A stretch of DNA of 64,000 nucleotides, the filler included, from Circinaria calcarea (Eukaryota): NCBI GenBank assembly GCA_051942165.1. It is 7 parts of 7 records of this genome, joined end to end, with 100 filler letters (N's around TTAATTAATTAA, not from the genome) between each part and the next. Parts side by side here need not be neighbours in the genome. Positions count along the whole stretch, not along the records: positions 36,678 to 45,739 come from JAVECS010000992.1; 6 more parts are not named here. One strand, given 5' to 3'. Numbering within the stretch: the stretch's first letter is position 1; every line of letters begins with the position of its first letter. Positions 9,074 through 45,739 of the stretch are shown here, one piece after another. The notes below the pieces were generated by a model. That model was given only the letters and a program-made list of their open reading frames with translations. It made no database searches and had not been told where the DNA came from. Position numbers and translations under genes: made by a program.

Positions 9074-9173
9074 NNNNNNNNNNNNNNNNNNNNNNNNNNN
9101 NNNNNNNNNNNNNNNNNTTAATTAATTAANNNNNNNNNNNNNNNNNNNNNNNNNNNNNNNNNNNNNNNNNNNN
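9074..9173. other. Artificial contig linker
   Basis: N-run + TTAATTAATTAA (stops in all six frames) + N-run, 100 bp. Confidence 0.98.
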
Positions 9174-36677: not shown

Positions 36678-36896
36678 TACGAAAAAATTAAGGATAAAAC
36701 TAGACGGAGAGTAACATGAGTTATATGAAAGCAACATACGGACATACATGTCAACTATGAAGAATTTAAAAAGTCTTGAAAGAGTGGTACCAAAATAAGG
36801 GAGGAAATTAAGAAAGACGTAACAAGCTCAAAAGAACTTAAATCCTTTAAAAAGATAAAGCGAACTATAGCCTGATTTTTTAATCCTAAGGAATAA
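36678..36896 (+). CDS. Plasmid accessory ORF-L, 5'-partial (code 4, 72 aa), Trp-rich domain
   Basis: YEKIKDKTRRRVTWVIWKQHTDIHVNYEEFKKSWKSGTKIREEIKKDV...WFFNPKE*, with four TGA read as Trp. Homologous to ORF-R. Confidence 0.75.
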
Positions 36897-36917
36897 TTCA
36901 AAACAAAAAAAAAAGTT

Positions 36918-36984
36918 TTTGTCTAGAGACTTTATAATATCTAGTACTGTGTTTTTATAAAATAAATTAAATTAAAAAAAAAAA
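36918..36984 (+). promoter_or_regulatory. Conserved leader or putative promoter of the DNA polymerase gene
   Basis: TTTGTCTAGA..ATCTAGTACTGTGT..A-run-ATG; homologous to the RNA polymerase leader. Confidence 0.6.
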
Positions 36985-39858
36985 ATGAAATATAATTATG
37001 AATTTACCAACAAAACAGTTACAAATAAGAACTGTATACTTGCATCACGTAAGAGATTAATCTCTACATGAAGACAAAATATAAGATCTTTATATTTTGA
37101 CTTTAATAACTTTGAGTTAAATCTTTTTACACAAATGATATTGGATAATTTTAATGTGGGTATTACGTACTCATTACTATTAAAGTTGCGATATGACGTA
37201 AATTATTATGGTATGGGGGGAGGTCAAATAGGGTTTAGACTATCAAATGTTAATGACTTAGAGTCAATAAAGAGGTTATATCAAGATTTTAACAACAAGA
37301 TTAGAATGTTTGAAGAAATTTATAACGTAGAAGAGGTAGAGGTAATACAGATATTATACATAGAAATATCAGAGATCTCCAAGTTAAAACTCCAAAATAT
37401 TAATCATATTAAATTAAACAAGGAATTTGTAAAGATTAAAGAAGTTAAGAAACAATATGGTTCTACATTTTTGCCTTTAACAGTAAATACTAATTACTAT
37501 GGTAAAATAATGCGTAACGATACACTTATTACATATATTAACTTGATTAATAGTCAGTTGGAGCTTATACACAGTGGTTTATTAAGTTCCAATGTACTGG
37601 AAAGCATGTATCTATATAACGGGGAGTATATAATTGTTAATAAAAAATTAGAGTTTAATGTATTTAAAAGAGAGGTGTATAGTGCTAAATCTGGTAGATT
37701 ATACTTGGAGGCTCTAGATAGTATATTAAACCAAAATACTTTTAAGAGAAAGATTGGGAATGTGACATTAACTATAGAGAATAGCATAGTAGTACACTTA
37801 GAGATATCTAAGGAATTATCATATGTAAAGCAGCAGTATAAGCCTTATAAAGAGTCATCTAATCCCTTTATAGGTAGTTTAGATTTAGAAACATTTGTTG
37901 ACTCAGACGGATATTCAAAAGTGTATGCATTAGGGTTTGTGACGAGAAAAGAGGAAAATAATCCTGTAATATTTTATTTGAAGGATTCATCTTCTAGCTC
38001 AGAACAATTAATCTTGAATTGTTTTGAACTTTTATTATCTAACAAGTATAATGGTTATATTTTTTATGTTCATAATTTTGGAGGTTTTGACGCTGTATTC
38101 ATATTAAAGGCATTGATTGAAGCTAATAAAAACAAAGGGAGTGAATACTATAAATTATCTACTCTATATAGAGATGATAGATTATTAAAGTTGGATATTA
38201 GGGTTAATAAAGGATCAGGTTTTAATAAAATTAGCATTGTAGATTCTTATAATCTATTAAGTGGTAGTTTGGATAAATTATCACAGTCTTTTGGTTTGGA
38301 AGTTACAAAAGGTAAATTTCCTCATGAATTTGTCAGAAGAGATACTTTAAGTTATGTGGGTAGTACACCATCTATCAGTTATTGAAAGGACTTGAGTAAA
38401 GAAGAGTTTAAAAAGATTTATAGAATAGACTGAGATTTAAAACAAGAATGTATTAACTACTTAGAAAAGGATCTTCTGAGTCTTTTGAAAGTAATGGATA
38501 CTTTTAATAGGTATGTTTTTAACAAATATGATTTACAAATGACTAATAGTTTGACTATATCCAGACTAGCTTTAAATATATTTATTAAGGATTATTTAAA
38601 AAAATCCAAACTACCAATTATAACAAAAAATATGTTTAGTGATATTAAAAAAGCTTATTTTGGAGGTGTAACTGAGGTATATAAACCTTATGGCCGAAAC
38701 TTATATTATTATGATGTTAATTCATTATACCCTTTTGCATCACTAAATAGTATGCCTAACACAAGTTGTATTTACATAGAAGATCATAAAAATAGTCTAA
38801 ATATACAAGACTTATTTGGTTTCTTTTATTGTGAGATAGAAAGTAAAGATAATTATCTAGGTTTATTACCAGTTCATAGCGAAGGAGGTTTAATTATGCC
38901 TAATGGTAAGTGAATTGGATGATATTTTTCAGAAGAGTTAAAGTTCGCAAGTATTAATAATTATGATATAAAAGTCATTAAAGGGTATACTTTTAACAAA
39001 CAAGAAAACGTATTTAATGAGTATGTAAGTCATCTATATGAGATAAAATCCAACAACGAAGGATCAATTAAAGTTATAGCAAAAAGTTTATTAAATAATC
39101 TTTTAGGTCGGTTTGGATTAGACATATATAAACCTGTTACTGAGATAGTAAATAGAGTAAAATTAGAGTTTATCAGTTCAACGTGTAAAGTAGTCTCTTA
39201 TAAGAATATAACCGATAGAGATTTTTTAGTTGTTTATTACCCTGAGGTCTCGAAAGAAATCTGTGAATCACATGGTTTAGACTATTTTAAAGTCTTGGGT
39301 GAAAAATCTAAATACAGCTTAGAGAAAGGTACTGAGTTTAAAGACGTATCTTTAAGTACAGCAGCTGCGGTTACATCTTACGCAAGAATATTTATGGGTA
39401 AAATAAAGCTAGACATTTTAAAGAATGGAGGCTCTATTTATTATACAGATACTGATAGTATAGTCACTAATAAACCTTTACCAGAAAAACTAGTCGGTGA
39501 TAAGCTAGGGCAATTTAAACTTGAATATGAAGTCCAAAGAGCGTATTTTATCTCATCAAAAACATATTGTTTGTTACTTAAAGATTGATCTGTCATAATA
39601 AAAGTTAAAGGGGTAAAGAATGATTCGTTAACTATTAGTGACTTTGTAAATATGTATAAGGGTATTAACGTCGTAGGTGTTAAACAGGATACAATCACTA
39701 GTTATGTAAAAGGATCTGTAGTAATATCAACTAAAAATATCAAATTGAATTATAACTCATATACGAAGAGAGAAAAAGTGTACAAGAACGGTCTGTGAAC
39801 GGGTACTAAACCTTTGATCTACAACAATAGTAATAATTGCTTGGCGGAGGGTAAGTAA
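36985..39858 (+). CDS. Protein-primed family B DNA polymerase (code 4, 957 aa)
   Basis: One frame with 7 TGA read as Trp. ExoI LDLET, ExoII YVHNFGGFD, ExoIII YLEKD, motif A YYDVNSLYP, motif B KSLLNNLLGRFG, motif C YTDTDS, C-terminal KREK..W..TKP. Confidence 0.96.
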
Positions 39859-40015
39859 AAAAAAAAACAAGATTGAATTACTTTAATGCACAAGGGATAG
39901 TATATCAAACTGTAATAATAGTATTTCTATTGCTAAACGTGTATCTAACATAAGTAAACCAAACTACATATCAGTATATGTTATATTATCTTGTTAATTA
40001 GCACTCTAAATAGTC

Positions 40016-40055
40016 GTAAAAAAAGGAAAGTAAAATTTTACTTTCCTTTTTTTAC
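40016..40055. terminator. Perfect 40-bp palindrome between the convergent polymerase genes
   Basis: GTAAAAAAAGGAAAGTAAAA|TTTTACTTTCCTTTTTTTAC. The terminator role is inferred from its position. Confidence 0.55.
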
Positions 40056-40069
40056 TTTCCTTTTATTAA

Positions 40070-43000
40070 CTAGCTCACTATATAGGAACTAGATTTTATA
40101 AGTTCAATGTCTAAACGTGTACTTAATACCAATTCAATATCGGGGAATTTCATTTTGGGAGTATTCTCTATCTTAATAATATTATTAAGATCATCGAAAC
40201 ATTCTTTACCGTAATGAAATTTAATATGTTGCCTAATTTCTCTATCTATTTGTCTTAAATAGTTATCATCTGAGTATATCTTAATATACACAAGCTTTAA
40301 CAATTCCATAAGATTCTCTACATTATTTGCCGTAACAGCAAAACAATCATGTATGGCATATATATTCTTGACGTCTGATGAATAATTATTAAAATAAAAA
40401 TCAGTTAACAAAGCAAGTGAAGCTGCATCCAATGAATGAACTAAGTTAGGCATGAAAGCACGTATCTGTTTGTTAGTGTTATATTTATCTTTATTGGGTA
40501 TCTTTAGTATAAAGCTACTTCTGTCATGGGAAAAAGGTCTTAATTTAGCTTCTTTTGTAGTAAGATAACTTTGTCTAACTACAACTCCTGAGGGTAAACC
40601 TCAAGGTATTACAAGATTTAACCTTGTACATATTTTAGCTATATCTTTTAAATATTTAATTAAGAGCCCTAACTTCATGAAATTATTATCTAAAACTACT
40701 CTTAAACCTGTTGCGATTAAACTGAAATCATTAAATCTTAGTCTAATATTAGGATCATCTATAAATTGATATCATCCGTTCTTAGTATTTAACTGGTCTA
40801 TATCTGAATCACTATCTTTACATTCTACAAAGTGCTCTTGTATATACTTTATCATTTGATGTGTAGTAACATTATATGCTATTGTCATAATAGCTTTCTT
40901 TATAATAGACCTTTGTATACTTAAATTACTTAATCTAGTGTAATTATCTCGATCTTCATCCGATAAATCCTTTAATTTTAGTTTATCCCTAAAATAGTCT
41001 ACTAAATTAACAGACAAAAAGTTGTAAAAATCTTTAGGAACATCCTCTCAAGTTGATTCTATTAAATTTAACTCTTTAGCAAGATTAAAATCACTGCTCA
41101 ACATAGAAAGGTGTTGATATCCATTACAAGTAGCATCTAGTTGTATCGGTAAATATGTTTCAAAATAAATAGTCTCATTTATATTATATGACTGTAATCA
41201 TCTAGTATATTCAAAACAAAAGGCAATAAATAATAATTTACTCTCAGCTTTAGATATTAATATACCATTTTCAAAGTCTATAATATTATTAATGTTGTCA
41301 TCAATTCATTTTATTCTATCAAATCAGGATTTTTTATCTAACTTATTACCATAACAATTTGCTCCAAATGCTTTTAGATAGTTTATTGCTTTTATATCTG
41401 TTTTCATTATTCTTTCAGGTTTGCTATAAATTAATAGAGATTTAGCTAATTCATTTGACTGATAGTTTAAGTATTGACTAATACAATTCATTCTACCCCT
41501 AAAGTCCAACCTGACTGGTAAATAAAATTCATGGATATTAGAGTATACTTTAGCTAATCCTAATATGTTCTCTTGTAGTTCTAATTTAGCCATAAAACTT
41601 TCTACCTGTAATCTTTCTTTTTTTGATAGTTTAGATTTTTCTAATAAATTATTTATGTTGTCTATATAAATAAGAAGATTATACTTACTACCATACTTAC
41701 TAATAAAGTTTAAAACGTCTCTATTTATCTTATAACCTACTGAGTTCATGTTATTAACTAAATCATATGCTACATTGCTGCTTTTTACACTAGAGGCTTC
41801 TTTTAATTCTCAATTATCAATAATTAACTTATCTGTAATTTTTATATCGTTTAATAAATAACCACCTAATCTTTCTACTGGCTTATTGTTAATTATCTCT
41901 CTAAAATAGGGTTTAGGTTTTACTATCATAGGTATTCTTACTGGTAAATGCATTAATTTTTTAGTGTTAACTAAACTAGATAGTACCTCATTAGTAGGTA
42001 CTAAATAACTATGCTTTTCAGTTTTACTCACCACAACTATCTTATTCTGTACTAACTTAGCTTCTTTTAATCATTCTACAACTATACCTCCTATATTACC
42101 CTTCAGAGTTTCATCATTGTAAACACTTACTAAATCAGTATTTTCTGCTTTTCAGTCCGTCAATGTATATCTATCGCCATTGTCCTGATGTTCTCTCTGT
42201 TTTATGTATAAAGAATAGAAATAATCTCTAATTAAATTTTCACTTATATCAATAAAAACGTTAGTAGATATATTATTATTATAAAAGTCATTATAATTAC
42301 TTATAATTCTAGCAAATCTACCCAACATGATAGATATTAACTCTTCATTACTTATTTCTTTTAATAATCTAGACAAATAATAACGACTAATCACATTTTG
42401 ACTTTGTCTAACTGACTTTGTATTTAAATTATAGGATCTTGCTCTAAAGTTATTTATAAACCCCAAGAGTATTCCTTTTGAATCTAATAACAAATTTTTT
42501 ATCTTAAGACCACTAAATAAATCATAATTTATAGATGAATTTTTAGAATTAGGATCTATAGATATATAAGAATAATCCATCAAAAATTTTTCTATACTTA
42601 TTTGTGTCTCTTCATTAATGGGTGCTTTTTTAAAAAACGTTTCTAGACTATTAAAAATAACTGAATCTTCTTTCATAGATTTTTTACTTACCGAAGCTAT
42701 TCTATCCTTAGATCTTTTTGCACTCGTCGAAGAATATCTTACTAAACCTAAGTTCATATGTATATTCTTAAAAGAAAATTTATTTATACCTAATTTTTTA
42801 ATGAAATGACGGCCTTTACCTGAAAGGTTAATCTGACTAGAATGAAAATCATTATGAGTGTATAGAGCATACCTGAAATCACTATCTAAAAGGGATAATG
42901 AGCTAGTTAATGTATTGATTGAACCTCTGTATTTCTTAGGCCCTGCATTAACTTCCATACCATTATTCTTTAAACTCTTTAATAGAAGATCTAAATCTTC

Positions 43001-43939
43001 TACTATAAAGATACATCTGTTTAAAATATTATACTTACTATCCATACCGTGATCAGTAGAGGACTCTTTAATAAATTCCATAGAATAACCCGTAGCTACC
43101 TCTAAGAATGTTCTAAGATTCCTATTAAAAGCTAATTCCATAAGATAACATGTTTTTTCATTATCTGAAACGATTACATTTTGTGCTGACTTCGATAATT
43201 GTCTCATAAAATCATATAAACTTCTAGGAAGCTCACTATGTATTTTTTTTCTATAAGATTCTGTAACTGCAGTTTGAAAACCTTCCACTTCATTTCATAA
43301 GTGAGACAGATAGCCATCCCCCATTAGATCATTTACAATAAATAAATTACCATTAAAAGCATTATAATAACGCTTTTCATTTATTTTAAAATTATTAAAT
43401 AGGAATGCGACTAAAACCATTGTAAATATGGGACTATAGTAGATATTATTATAAACCAAAACATTTTTACCCTCATTCTTAATAACTCTAAATGCTACAA
43501 CATAAATACCTTTATATTTTTTATTAGGAGATTTGAACTTATTAGTCCCCAATTTATAACCATTTTCTAATGCATCTTCTAACTCACCGCTAATTAAGTA
43601 ATTATTTTTTCCAAACGTATGTTTCACTTCTAGTTTCTCCGAATTTAAATCGCAATCTAGATCGTCATCATCCATATAAACAATTTCATCTTCTGCTATT
43701 GGTGAATTATTGTCTACTTTAAGTAAAAGATTGTCTGATAACTTAGGCAAATTATCTTCTCTTCTAGATAAGTTATTATTTAAAGAGTTGGAGACCGCTA
43801 AACCATTAACTGCATTGCTACCAGATTCATTTATATCTAAACCTATTGATTCTATGCTTGGCTTCGTAGAATAAAGTTCGACTTTATTGCCCAAATTGTA
43901 ATTCGAAATTTTTGTTGTTTTATTCATTATTTTAATCAT
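40070..43939 (-). CDS. T7/T3-type single-subunit DNA-dependent RNA polymerase (code 4, ~1289 aa)
   Basis: Six ORF-track fragments share one frame, separated by TGA codons. Motifs: PMIVKPKPY, LDFRGRM, LPIQLDATCNGYQH, RSIIKKAIMTIAYN, WGLPSG..VRQSY, PNLVHSLDA, IHDCF. Confidence 0.96.
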
Positions 43940-44018
43940 TGTTTTTTTTTTATTTAAATACGATTTATATACACAATACTAGATTTATAATGAATATTCA
44001 TTAAAGGTTCTAGACAAA
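43940..44018 (-). promoter_or_regulatory. Conserved leader or putative promoter of the RNA polymerase gene
   Basis: Minus strand reads TTTGTCTAGA..ATCTAGTATTGTGT..A-run-CAATG; homologous to the DNA polymerase leader. Confidence 0.6.
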
Positions 44019-44056
44019 CCTAATTTACGAAAAGTAAAATAGAGTAAACTAATTTT

Positions 44057-45739
44057 CTATACTATACTCCTTTTATGATTTATGTGATGTACATAACCAT
44101 GCTTACGATGTACATACCCATGCCTTTGATGACCATGTCTATGATGCTCAGATCCGTGGTGTCTATGCATTCTAGAAGTTCTAGAACTCTTATTATTGCT
44201 ATAACCTTCTGACTCCGAAACTTTGACGGGTCTGTGATGTCTATTACTTCTTTCAACTAGAAGAGCTCTATCATTATTACTATCACCTACATGACTAGTA
44301 TTAGTTACACCATTTCTAGCTACAAAACCTGTATTTTGTTTCACATGAATGTTAGCTCCTTTACGATTTCTATCCGCTAAATAATTAGATTTATTTCTAT
44401 CTTGTATTGGATTATCAAAAGGACGCTTTTTATCTAAAAGATTCTGGACCTTTTTCTCTAAATTAATTTTTAACTCATCTTTAATAGTTTTTCATATCTT
44501 AGTATCCGGGGATCAAGAATCCTTAAATTCTGCATAAGAACTGTAATTACCTCTTCTATTTTCTCAAATAGTTCAAAGTAGCTTACGTCTACCTCAACTA
44601 TCATATTTAATATAAATACTATTAAGATTAGAATCTAGAGATTTAAATCCCAATTTTATCTTACTAAATAAACCGGGTTTAGCTATTACAACTTCTTTAC
44701 TTGAGTAACCTCTGTTTAGTTCCATAAGAATTCCTTCTCTGATCTTTCGTCTTCGATTACTAAATTCTTCTTCAGTATTTATAGTAGGGATTGTGTTATT
44801 AGACGTATGTTTGTTAGAGACACTATCCGATTTTAAGCCATCTAGAACTTGTCCATTAACTTTAGCCGGACTAACTCTTCTTTCACCTACATTTTGGCTA
44901 TCTGAAGATGATGGGAATAATGGAGACATTGTGTTAGGTGTTGTTAAATTACTAGCTTTTATTCTAGGAGGTATATTAGGTGAATGGTTTGGTGTTGTAT
45001 TTACAACTAAAGGTGTACGATTTGGTGTGGTATATTGTGTGGTAATTGATGGAGATGATGGAAATAGAGGTGACATTGTACTTGGTGTTGTTAAATTACT
45101 TGGTCTAGGTGCTTGACCGAGTGGTCTATTAGCAACTTGTGGTGTCTTTTCAAATAAAGGAAGATTTCCACTTGCTGCGGGAGAAGGTATTATACTAGGT
45201 ATATGTCTAGGCCGTGATGGTAATACCTCCGATACCATATCTTTAGTTGGTGCTTTTATTCCAGCAGATCTATATAACTCTGATACAGGTCTACTATAAG
45301 ATATAGAATCCCTATTAAAACTTGGAGTAGGTGCATACTTTAAAGGTACTGAATAAGTTGTTGTGGCTCTAGATGTAATGGACGCCCTTGATGCATGCGA
45401 TGATCTAGAAACATGAGATGATCTAGATATATTATCATTCGGATTATAAGCAACTGGACGTAAATATGTATTGTTTGTAGATTTGTACCTATCTCCCTCA
45501 TTATCTATGTGAACACTTTTACCTTTATCCTTTCCTTCACATAAAATAGGTTTAAATAAATCTAACTCAGGTATATATGTATAAATTTTTAGAATAAGAG
45601 AAACTAATAGACCAATAAGGAAAAAGTCCTTAAAACTAGATAAATCGTAGCTAAAGTAAAGGACGATATATCAACGAACGGTGAAAGAAAGAACCAAAGT
45701 AATAGATAAGATAGCTAAACTTCGAAGAGTAAATAAATT
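44057..45739 (-). CDS. Plasmid accessory ORF-R, 5'-partial (code 4, >=560 aa): 2 hydrophobic segments, S/P/T-rich linker, Trp-rich domain, His-rich tail
   Basis: Translated by hand: open from the contig end to TAG at 44057 when TGA=Trp. It joins ORF-track pieces 44594-45238 and 44057-44344. Confidence 0.85.

What the first reader, a model, noticed from the sequence alone, without database searches (positions are those of the whole stretch)
36918..44018. Homologous inward-facing leaders before both polymerase genes: candidate promoter for the plasmid RNA polymerase
Seen: TTTGTCTAGA is exact in both (36918-36927 on +; 44018-44009 on -). ATCTAGTA(C/T)TGTGT matches 13/14 (36939-36952; 43984-43971) and lies 32 and 31 nt before the respective ATGs. 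Both leaders end in TTAAAT plus an A-run before ATG. The RNA polymerase copy has an extra 16-bp palindrome, TAATGAATATTCATTA (43988-44003), between the boxes, a possible autoregulatory site. Established: T7-type enzymes recognise short conserved promoters, and invertron promoters usually sit in the TIRs. Here the shared signals are internal.
Basis: partly seen in the sequence, partly recalled or inferred. Interest (0 to 1): 0.7.

Follow-up and report, generated by a model that had tools for sequence, protein, structure and literature searches.

The report
Folded gene-leader signal of mitochondrial plasmids
The two matching stretches in front of the polymerase genes of this fungal mitochondrial plasmid are copies of an apparently undescribed small knot-folding signal that sits about 30 bases before nearly every gene in many related plasmids, more likely working on the messenger RNA than as an ordinary promoter.

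Summary
The boxes are real and beyond chance. They lie on a 9,062-bp fungal mitochondrial invertron contig whose terminal repeats are not assembled. In relatives the same two-part signal precedes 46 of 75 polymerase genes and 26 accessory ORFs, but no host gene scored. The boxes are not a linear promoter: their spacing varies from -1 to 52 nt, and box 1 pairs with box 2 with compensatory changes (53 of 74 fully paired, against 31 expected). The flanks of box 1 form a second, interleaved stem, which gives an H-type pseudoknot followed by a conserved TAYTGYRY tail, a median 33 nt before ATG. A separate T7-like motif lies near relatives' plasmid ends, upstream of the first element, and terminator-like hairpins occur only between the convergent polymerases. 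Best reading (0.55): an RNA signal, one per gene, for translation initiation or 5'-end maturation of read-through transcripts. Main rival (0.3): an N4-like, structure-dependent promoter. The folding strand is unresolved and no RNA data were available. No Rfam match.

The parts
36678..45739 (.). Contig of a fungal mitochondrial linear plasmid (invertron type), 28% GC, genetic code 4. Terminal inverted repeats are not in the contig; free or integrated state unknown.
   Evidence: equals G000:C992, and both ends stop at sequence repeated in mitochondrial contigs
36678..36896 (+). 3' end of ORF-L (72 codons, open at the contig end), a paralogue of the ORF-R C-terminal domain
   Evidence: translation; domain HMM E=5.7e-10; no Pfam family
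36912..36952 (+). Leader element before DNAP. Stem 1: 36912-36917 with 36928-36933. Loop 1: 36918-36922. Stem 2: 36923-36927 with 36940-36944. Conserved tail: 36945-36952.
   Evidence: 28 bits; coordinates; stem-1 register of this copy read by eye; family covariation
36985..39858 (+). Protein-primed-type family B DNA polymerase, 957 aa, intact
   Evidence: PF03175 E=1.1e-97
40016..40055 (.). Perfect 40-bp palindrome (A-run, stem, T-run) between the convergent genes; candidate bidirectional terminator or 3'-end hairpin
   Evidence: arms of 12 bp or more in 22 of 37 convergent intergenic regions
40070..43939 (-). T7-type single-subunit RNA polymerase, 1289 aa, intact
   Evidence: PF00940 E=3.7e-61; 416 homologues
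43971..44021 (-). Leader element before RNAP. Stem 1: 44021-44018 with 44008-44005. Loop 1: 44017-44014. Stem 2: 44013-44009 with 43983-43979. Loop 3: 44004-43984. Conserved tail: 43978-43971.
   Evidence: 43.5 bits; coordinates; covariation
43988..44003 (.).
   Evidence: 1 of 25 RNAP leaders, 0 of 21 DNAP leaders; other long spacers fold into unrelated weak hairpins
44057..45739 (-). ORF-R (at least 560 codons, open at the contig end): hydrophobic N-terminus, low-complexity middle, conserved C-terminal domain of an unnamed family
   Evidence: no Pfam family; 230 clusters at E<=0.001; fold search without a clear match

Best explanation
The two boxes are the halves of one folded, single-stranded signal that works on the mRNA. 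SHOWN: it is an H-type pseudoknot pattern. Stem 1 has a 2-bp core (up to 4-6 bp) around box 1; loop 1 is 4-5 nt and T-rich; stem 2 is 5 bp between box 1 and box 2; loop 3 is free in length; a conserved TAYTGYRY tail follows. It sits a median 33 nt before the ATG of nearly every gene of these plasmids and before no host gene scored. INFERRED: the plasmid RNA polymerase starts at a separate T7-like motif near each plasmid end, reads through the accessory ORF(s) into the polymerase gene, and stops at the central bidirectional hairpin. Each gene then needs its own entry signal, and the pseudoknot plus tail supplies it. It does so either by positioning the mitoribosome, alone or through a bound protein, in place of a gene-specific host translational activator (slightly favoured, about 0.3), or by fixing and protecting a processed 5' end against 5'-3' decay (about 0.25).
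For: Presence: 46 of 75 leaders score 17.6 bits or more, the other 29 score 8.2 or less. 90 hits against 3 in reversed controls over 917,798 nt; 81 of 90 precede an ORF, 26 of them accessory ORFs not used in training. Pairing, on an alignment made by sequence alone: stem 2 fully paired in 53 of 74 against 30.8 expected (max 44 in 5000 permutations); of 18 non-consensus cores 12 stay paired and 0 are direct repeats; the two core pairs of stem 1 each p=0.0002. It holds when halves are permuted only within a plasmid: stem 2 p=0.0001, stem 1 core p=0.015. The tool count agrees. [quoted passage not shown] A separate terminal motif ranks 1st in its locus in 7 of 8 leave-one-out tests, is found in 3 held-out plasmids and lies about 90-300 nt upstream of the first element; the same order occurs internally in L058/L062 and in an integrated copy in G000:C239. 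No hairpin arm of 12 bp or more in 0 of 54 gaps before elements against 22 of 37 convergent gaps. The element is nearly unchanged in plasmids whose RNAP is 39-44% identical, yet absent from L049 (54% identical), whose polymerase genes start in the terminal repeat.
Against: No transcript end, start or ribosome position was observed. The G-T over A-C excess on the sense strand (17 vs 6, p=0.017) vanishes once the strand's own mutational skew is allowed for (p=0.25), so RNA against template DNA is unresolved. The 20-40 nt distance is also that of the per-gene UCS promoters of yeast cytoplasmic linear elements (PMC6211774, passages). The tail reads like a T7/N4 initiation region (TAYT then G in 60 of 74). 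The outer and inner pairs of stem 1 are not above permutation (p=0.25, 0.59), and 6 of 18 variant stem-2 cores are broken. ViennaRNA, which cannot model pseudoknots, recovers stem 2 only for the RNAP leader. The terminal motif rests on 11 hand-picked ends and is unspecific at 13 bits (30 hits vs 19 control); for this plasmid the ends are not assembled. T7 itself has many internal promoters sharing one terminator (recalled), so missing terminators do not exclude internal starts.
Confidence: 0.55

Rival explanations
1. Structure-dependent, per-gene promoter for the plasmid polymerase, like N4 virion RNAP promoters: the stems form in DNA (extruded, or on a strand displaced during replication) and transcription starts about 4 nt after stem 2, at the G of TAYT|G.
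For: N4 promoters combine conserved bases with freely variable but paired stem bases (PMC4496689, passages), as seen here. One copy per gene at 27-40 nt from ATG parallels UCS promoters at 20-40 nt (PMC6211774, passages). No other promoter-like motif precedes internal elements (3 of 54 score 13 bits or more). The strand test is neutral.
Against: The candidate +1 is not a purine in 11 of 74. Two interleaved stems cannot both form in a cruciform. Loop length varies by 50 nt, whereas N4 promoters are short hairpins centred at -11. A better T7-like motif lies upstream of the first element and of two internal ones. The element does not follow polymerase similarity.
Confidence: 0.3
2. One reading: a short duplex T7-type promoter made of two sequence boxes, with the palindrome as an autoregulatory operator.
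For: Shared, conserved, plasmid-specific boxes before both polymerase genes.
Against: Spacing between the boxes runs from -1 to 52 nt; changes in box 1 are answered by complementary, never identical, changes in box 2. The palindrome is in 1 of 25 RNAP leaders.
Confidence: 0.06
3. The element is itself catalytic or a nuclease target: a small self-cleaving RNA, or a tRNA-like or RNase III-type site that cuts the read-through transcript before each gene.
For: Compact pseudoknot with an invariant tail, placed a median 42 nt after the upstream stop codon.
Against: No Rfam family, ribozymes included, matches either leader. It also precedes the first gene, where no cut is needed. Few invariant unpaired bases.
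Confidence: 0.06
4. A promoter or signal of the host mitochondrial genome borrowed by the plasmid, or a chance or gene-conversion likeness without function.
For: Copies lie in the host's mitochondrial contigs.
Against: Host core-gene leaders score -2 to -18 bits. Box 2 alone hits 5 times in 112,466 nt of own mitochondrial contigs, never before a core gene. Compensatory change across divergent lineages needs selection.
Confidence: 0.03

Closest known systems
Invertron-type fungal mitochondrial linear plasmids (pAL2-1, kalilo, maranhar, pClK1, pFP1)
   Same: Convergent family B DNA polymerase and T7-type RNA polymerase genes, code 4, AT-rich, decayed copies in host mtDNA. The pAL2-1 RNAP is 48% identical. 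Definition as in PMC9925561 (passages). Transcript starts inside the terminal repeats of kalilo, maranhar and pClK1 are recalled, not read.
   Different: Accessory ORFs lie between the ends and the polymerases, each with the folded leader. The locus nearest pAL2-1 in the tree (L049) lacks the element. DNA of the named plasmids could not be fetched.
Yeast mitochondrial translational-activator binding sites in 5' UTRs
   Same: [quoted passage not shown]
   Different: Those sites are gene-specific and read by nuclear-encoded proteins; this is one shared, self-folding element before all plasmid genes. No binding protein is shown.
Exoribonuclease-resistant RNAs (xrRNA) in intergenic regions of plant viruses
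   Same: Pseudoknot-containing folds between ORFs that can end up in the 5' UTR of downstream RNAs (PMC10520033, passages). Fungal mitochondria have a 5'-3' exoribonuclease, Pet127, partly hindered by structure (PMC9014873, passages).
   Different: No sequence or Rfam likeness; much smaller stems; nuclease resistance untested.
Phage N4 virion RNA polymerase hairpin promoters
   Same: T7-family enzyme; conserved bases plus variable, paired stem bases (PMC4496689, passages).
   Different: N4 has one short template-strand hairpin centred at -11; this has two interleaved stems and a loop of very variable length, and the folding strand is unknown.
UCS promoters of yeast cytoplasmic virus-like elements (pGKL1/2)
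   Same: One conserved signal 20-40 nt before every ORF of a linear protein-primed DNA (PMC6211774, passages).
   Different: UCS is a 6-nt linear motif for a multisubunit-type cytoplasmic polymerase giving monocistronic RNAs; this element is structured, mitochondrial and unrelated in sequence.

Membership tests
Invertron-type mitochondrial plasmid | Family B (protein-primed type) DNA polymerase gene | tested here: met
   PF03175 E=1.1e-97
Invertron-type mitochondrial plasmid | T7-type RNA polymerase gene in inverted orientation | tested here: met
   PF00940 E=3.7e-61 on the opposite strand
Invertron-type mitochondrial plasmid | Terminal inverted repeats | tested here: inconclusive
   None in the contig; both ends break at repeated sequence. 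Several relatives show inverted end repeats.
Invertron-type mitochondrial plasmid | Free linear DNA with 5' terminal proteins | not testable with these tools
   Needs long reads and biochemistry
T7-type duplex promoter (the element) | Fixed spacing of recognised bases | tested here: not met
   Gap between boxes -1 to 52 nt over 74 elements
T7-type duplex promoter (the element) | Purine start after a TATA-like melting region | tested here: inconclusive
   TAYT then G in 60, A in 3, pyrimidine in 11 of 74; +1 not mapped
N4-type hairpin promoter | Variable but paired stem bases around conserved bases | tested here: met
N4-type hairpin promoter | Hairpin on the template strand | tested here: inconclusive
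   Wobble bias 17 vs 6 towards the sense strand, not significant after skew correction
N4-type hairpin promoter | Initiation by the cognate polymerase next to the hairpin | not testable with these tools
   Needs in vitro transcription
H-type pseudoknot | Two interleaved stems, both covarying | tested here: met
   Stem 2: three pairs p<=0.0004. Stem 1: two core pairs p=0.0002. Within-plasmid control.
H-type pseudoknot | Both stems formed at once rather than as alternatives | not testable with these tools
   The stems use different bases and are compatible; needs probing
Curated RNA families (Rfam 15, riboswitches, ribozymes and xrRNAs included) | Covariance-model match over the element | tested here: not met
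   No match over any element in five plasmids at E<=5 or over the two leaders at E<=10. Covariance models do not score pseudoknot pairs.
xrRNA | Stalls a 5'-3' exoribonuclease | not testable with these tools
   Needs a Pet127 or Xrn1 assay
Host mitochondrial promoter or leader signal | Occurs before host genes or rRNA | tested here: not met
   the host mitogenome is fragmented and only 112 kb (partly overlapping loci) were scanned

The most novel reading that the evidence does not exclude
A widespread group of fungal mitochondrial plasmids has evolved a roughly 35-nt self-folding RNA pseudoknot that recruits the mitoribosome to any downstream ORF without a gene-specific host activator: a portable mitochondrial ribosome-entry element. 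It may be read by the plasmids' own unnamed, probably membrane-anchored ORF-R/ORF-L protein, which co-occurs with it (19 of 28 vs 1 of 14).
Probability: 0.28. Interest if true: 0.9.

Novelty: new variant of a known kind. Interest (0 to 1): 0.72.

Why it matters
How invertron polymerases find their promoters, and how plasmid genes get translated in mitochondria whose own mRNAs rely on gene-specific nuclear activators, are old questions with little data. This work gives two separate, short, testable sequences: a T7-like end motif and a per-gene pseudoknot with natural compensatory variants that define the mutants to build. Either leading outcome is of note: a self-folding translation or maturation signal in mitochondria, or a second example after N4 of a structure-reading T7-family promoter. 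The motif also marks gene starts in these plasmids and in their remnants in mitogenomes, and could serve as a part for expressing genes in fungal mitochondria.

Tried and rejected
Single-protein scans of viral contigs found no relatives; the alignment query did. No RNA holder was listed for the contig; four DNA runs laid on it gave scattered pieces and nothing on transcript ends. A first pairing-based descriptor was useless (685 hits vs 625 control) and was replaced by a sequence-only two-block matrix. A loose genome-wide pattern gave 35 hits vs 31 control; 12 further pattern-hit loci have 43-51% GC and are nuclear-like. The wobble argument for an RNA strand was dropped after the skew control. 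Autoregulation by the palindrome and the TTAAAT/A-run as a signal were rejected. Long spacers fold only weakly: 6 of 37 at p<=0.05, 25 of 37 at p<=0.2. The sigma-70 scan is at chance (50 vs 58.7). PLSDB holds no relative. The ORF-R domain model (pLDDT 83) has no clear fold match (best Foldseek E 0.2, best Z 5.5), so an RNA-binding role is unsupported; no language-model look-alike search of it was obtained. The careful tree did not finish; the quick tree is used. No terminal-repeat contig was found in the own genome. Host organisms of the close relatives remain unnamed. The classic papers on plasmid transcript mapping are not in the library, so the known start sequences could not be compared. 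My early note that all host-mtDNA copies precede ORF-R-family genes was wrong: this is shown for two; the others precede short, unassigned frames.
Full report
CONTEXT. The window is a chain of unrelated ~9-kb contigs joined by 100-nt spacers. The finding lies on one of them, 36678-45739 (G000:C992, 9,062 bp, 28% GC), among fungal nuclear contigs. Under code 4 it encodes a family B DNA polymerase (36985-39858, +) and a T7-type RNA polymerase (43939-40070, -), both intact and convergent, flanked by two ORFs cut by the contig ends: the last 72 codons of ORF-L and at least 560 codons of ORF-R. Both ends stop at sequence that is repeated in mitochondrial contigs of the same assembly, which also hold broken copies of both polymerases. 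No terminal repeat was recovered, so free or integrated state is unknown.

OBSERVATION. The boxes, distances and palindrome are as written, and the leader likeness exceeds 2000 shuffles. Box 1 also occurs once inside the RNAP gene. The TTAAAT/A-run ending is not conserved.

RELATIVES. An alignment of the window RNAP with 34 homologues found 200 confirmed stretches in metagenomes, of which the best 80 gave 76 loci, plus 8 viral-collection loci of which I used 2. From polymerase ORFs of at least 850 codons with an early ATG, after dropping five duplicate loci and leaders under 60 nt, 75 leaders remained. A two-block matrix seeded on the window's two leaders and using sequence only split them cleanly: 46 at 17.6-45 bits, 29 at 8.2 or less. 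Scanning whole loci gave 90 hits of 12 bits or more in 917,798 nt against 3 in reversed sequence. Of these, 33 precede RNAP, 22 DNAP, 12 ORF-R-family, 14 other ORFs and 9 no ORF; the 90 include four rows that reuse one box 1 and three duplicate loci. The 26 accessory-ORF hits were not in the training set. An exact-pattern scan of the viral collection gave 20 stretches: 3 stretches (2 contigs) are AT-rich plasmid-type leaders, one contig new and carrying an RNAP remnant; 15 of the other 17 lie inside open phage-type frames and look like chance. On a quick RNAP tree the label is clustered but needs 8 changes; 14 of 15 rows in the window's group carry it, and the exception (L051) shows a compensated variant by eye.

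STRUCTURE. In 74 distinct elements the gap between the blocks runs from -1 to 52 nt, which a duplex-reading promoter cannot use. CTAG is self-complementary, so the variants decide between repeat and pairing. The fifth pair is A-T in 38 and T-A in 19 (58 of 74 paired, 36.9 expected); the inner pairs show G-C, A-T and T-A swaps; of 18 non-consensus cores 12 remain paired, 6 are broken and none is a direct repeat. All five pairs hold in 53 of 74 (expected 30.8). The two bases before the TTTRT run pair with the two after box 1 (65 and 66 of 74, p=0.0002 each), while the outer and inner neighbours of that stem are not above permutation. Permuting only among elements of one plasmid keeps the signal (stem 2: 347 vs 332 cells, p=0.0001; stem 1 core: p=0.015). 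The pair-counting tool on a MAFFT alignment gave 88.9% paired, 7 of 9 pairs with changes on both sides, 0 of 500 shuffles on four of five measures, and slid controls of 28-48%. That alignment held 61 of the 74; the 13 left out, mostly long spacers, include five of the six broken cores, so it overstates the fit. The stems interleave (1a, 2a, 1b, 2b) and use different bases, which is an H-type pseudoknot; two alternative hairpins cannot be excluded. The tail TAYTGYRY is conserved as sequence. Rfam has no match.

WHICH STRAND. G-T exceeds A-C on the sense strand (17 vs 6 at lineage level), but fourfold sites show a 1.85-fold skew the same way and the excess is then not significant (p=0.25). The data do not tell RNA from template DNA.

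NOT A HOST SIGNAL. Leaders of eight host core genes in the own mitochondrial contigs (cob, atp6, atp8, nad3, nad4L, nad5, nad6, cox3; names recalled from their N-termini) score -2 to -18 bits. Box 2 alone hits five times in 112,466 nt of own mitochondrial loci, rRNA-bearing ones included, and never before a core gene. Two of these copies precede ORF-L/R-type starts; the others precede short, unassigned frames.

A SECOND MOTIF AT THE ENDS. In 11 hand-picked terminal regions of relatives a Gibbs search found a purine-rich block (information 14.8 against 9.7-10.8 in 12 shuffles run with fewer restarts). Anchored on ATAG/ATGA plus a purine run, it was present in 8 of 11; left out in turn, the true site ranked first in its whole locus in 7 of 8 and second in 1; the matrix then picked up three further plasmid ends, internal copies about 60 nt before the RNAP element of L058 and L062, and a copy 173 nt before the element in G000:C239. 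It mostly lies within about 45 nt of the assembled end, resembles the TATA|G-purine start of T7 promoters (recalled), and is often followed by a complementary pyrimidine stretch. At 13 bits it is unspecific (30 vs 19 control). The window contig has no such site (best 10.5). A long hairpin with A- and T-runs lies between the convergent genes here (40016-40055) and arms of 12 bp or more occur in 22 of 37 such regions, against 0 of 54 gaps between an upstream stop and an element (median gap 42 nt, often too short to hold one).

MECHANISM. These facts fit a layout of end promoter, read-through, central terminator and one folded signal per gene (inferred). Stem 2 ends a median 33 nt before ATG whatever the loop length (65 of 74 measurable), where yeast translational activators bind (PMC12916500), so ribosome positioning is slightly favoured over 5'-end protection from a Pet127-type nuclease (PMC9014873; viral analogy PMC10520033). 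The element is nearly constant where the RNAP is 39-44% identical and absent from L049 (54%), whose polymerase genes start in the end repeat; this suits a host-read or self-acting signal better than a cognate promoter. The serious rival is an N4-like structured promoter (PMC4496689), helped by the UCS precedent for per-gene promoters at this distance (PMC6211774) and by the TAYT|G tail. The ORF-R/L domain co-occurs with the element (19 of 28 vs 1 of 14, Fisher p=2e-4, confounded by kinship) but has no Pfam or fold match; a role as the element's reader is speculation.

NOVELTY AND LITERATURE. The plasmid is a new member of a known class; the element seems undescribed. Ten library searches were run. 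The motif strings hit only four papers on unrelated subjects (listing only), and pseudoknot plus mitochondrial plasmid returned only two VS ribozyme papers and a ribozyme review (listing only). I saw search passages, not whole texts or supplements, of PMC9925561, PMC12916500, PMC9014873, PMC10048350, PMC1864894, PMC6211774, PMC4496689 and PMC10520033. The 1990s-2000s subscription papers that mapped transcripts of kalilo, maranhar, pClK1 and pFP1 were not available and are recalled only; they may have noted one of these motifs as a putative promoter. Earlier scan notes describe other shared leaders in mushroom mitochondrial plasmids but no look-alike of this one; they are unchecked leads.

VERDICT. 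Observation confirmed; interpretation partly supported. A real, deeply conserved, covariation-supported structured leader with open function. Interest 0.72.

Noticed in passing
window 40016-40055: Perfect 40-bp palindrome with A- and T-runs between the convergent polymerases; the position is conserved with free sequence in 22 of 37 relatives. Likely bidirectional terminator.
   Followed up: yes
ends of L035, L040, L042, L043, L046, L058, L062, L063, L066, L075, L103/L104; L013 minus strand 2698: T7-like motif (ATAG or ATGA plus purine run, then a complementary pyrimidine stretch) near plasmid ends; best candidate for the true polymerase promoter.
   Followed up: partly
window 44057-45739 and 36678-36896: ORF-R/ORF-L belong to a large unnamed family (230 clusters) with a hydrophobic N-terminus and a conserved aromatic-basic domain; many plasmids carry one long and one short paralogue, one on each arm.
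   Followed up: partly
L013 (G000:C239) minus strand 2740-1806: An integrated plasmid end in host mtDNA keeps the terminal motif, the element and an intact 211-codon ORF-L-type gene while neighbouring polymerase copies are broken; possibly still expressed.
   Followed up: partly
G000 contigs C671 vs C3104/C3101; C507 vs C3120/C1450: Two differing sets of mitochondrial cox1 and large-subunit rRNA pieces: the assembly may hold two mitochondrial genomes or duplicated pieces.
   Followed up: no
L050, L052, L073, L082 polymerase leaders: Element-less plasmids of another lineage share a different leader hairpin ending in CTCTT or CCCTT before both polymerase genes: a possible parallel solution (by eye).
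   Followed up: no
L015 (G000:C1807) minus strand from 4392: A decayed element copy precedes a broken frame that ends in cox3-like words: a chimeric remnant.
   Followed up: no
L013 2484 and 1743, L018 1425 and 629, L019 2410, L103 RNAP leader: In host-mtDNA copies and one relative the tail is extended by a short ACAG-containing stretch that can pair back on the tail.
   Followed up: no
window 9074-9173 and every ~9.17 kb after: 100-nt spacers (44 N, a 12-nt six-frame stop linker, 44 N) show that the window is a concatenation of size-sorted contigs; neighbouring genes are not linked.
   Followed up: yes
L085 1983-2052; L043 8501-8582: Tandem or doubled copies of the element or of box 1 before one gene.
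   Followed up: no
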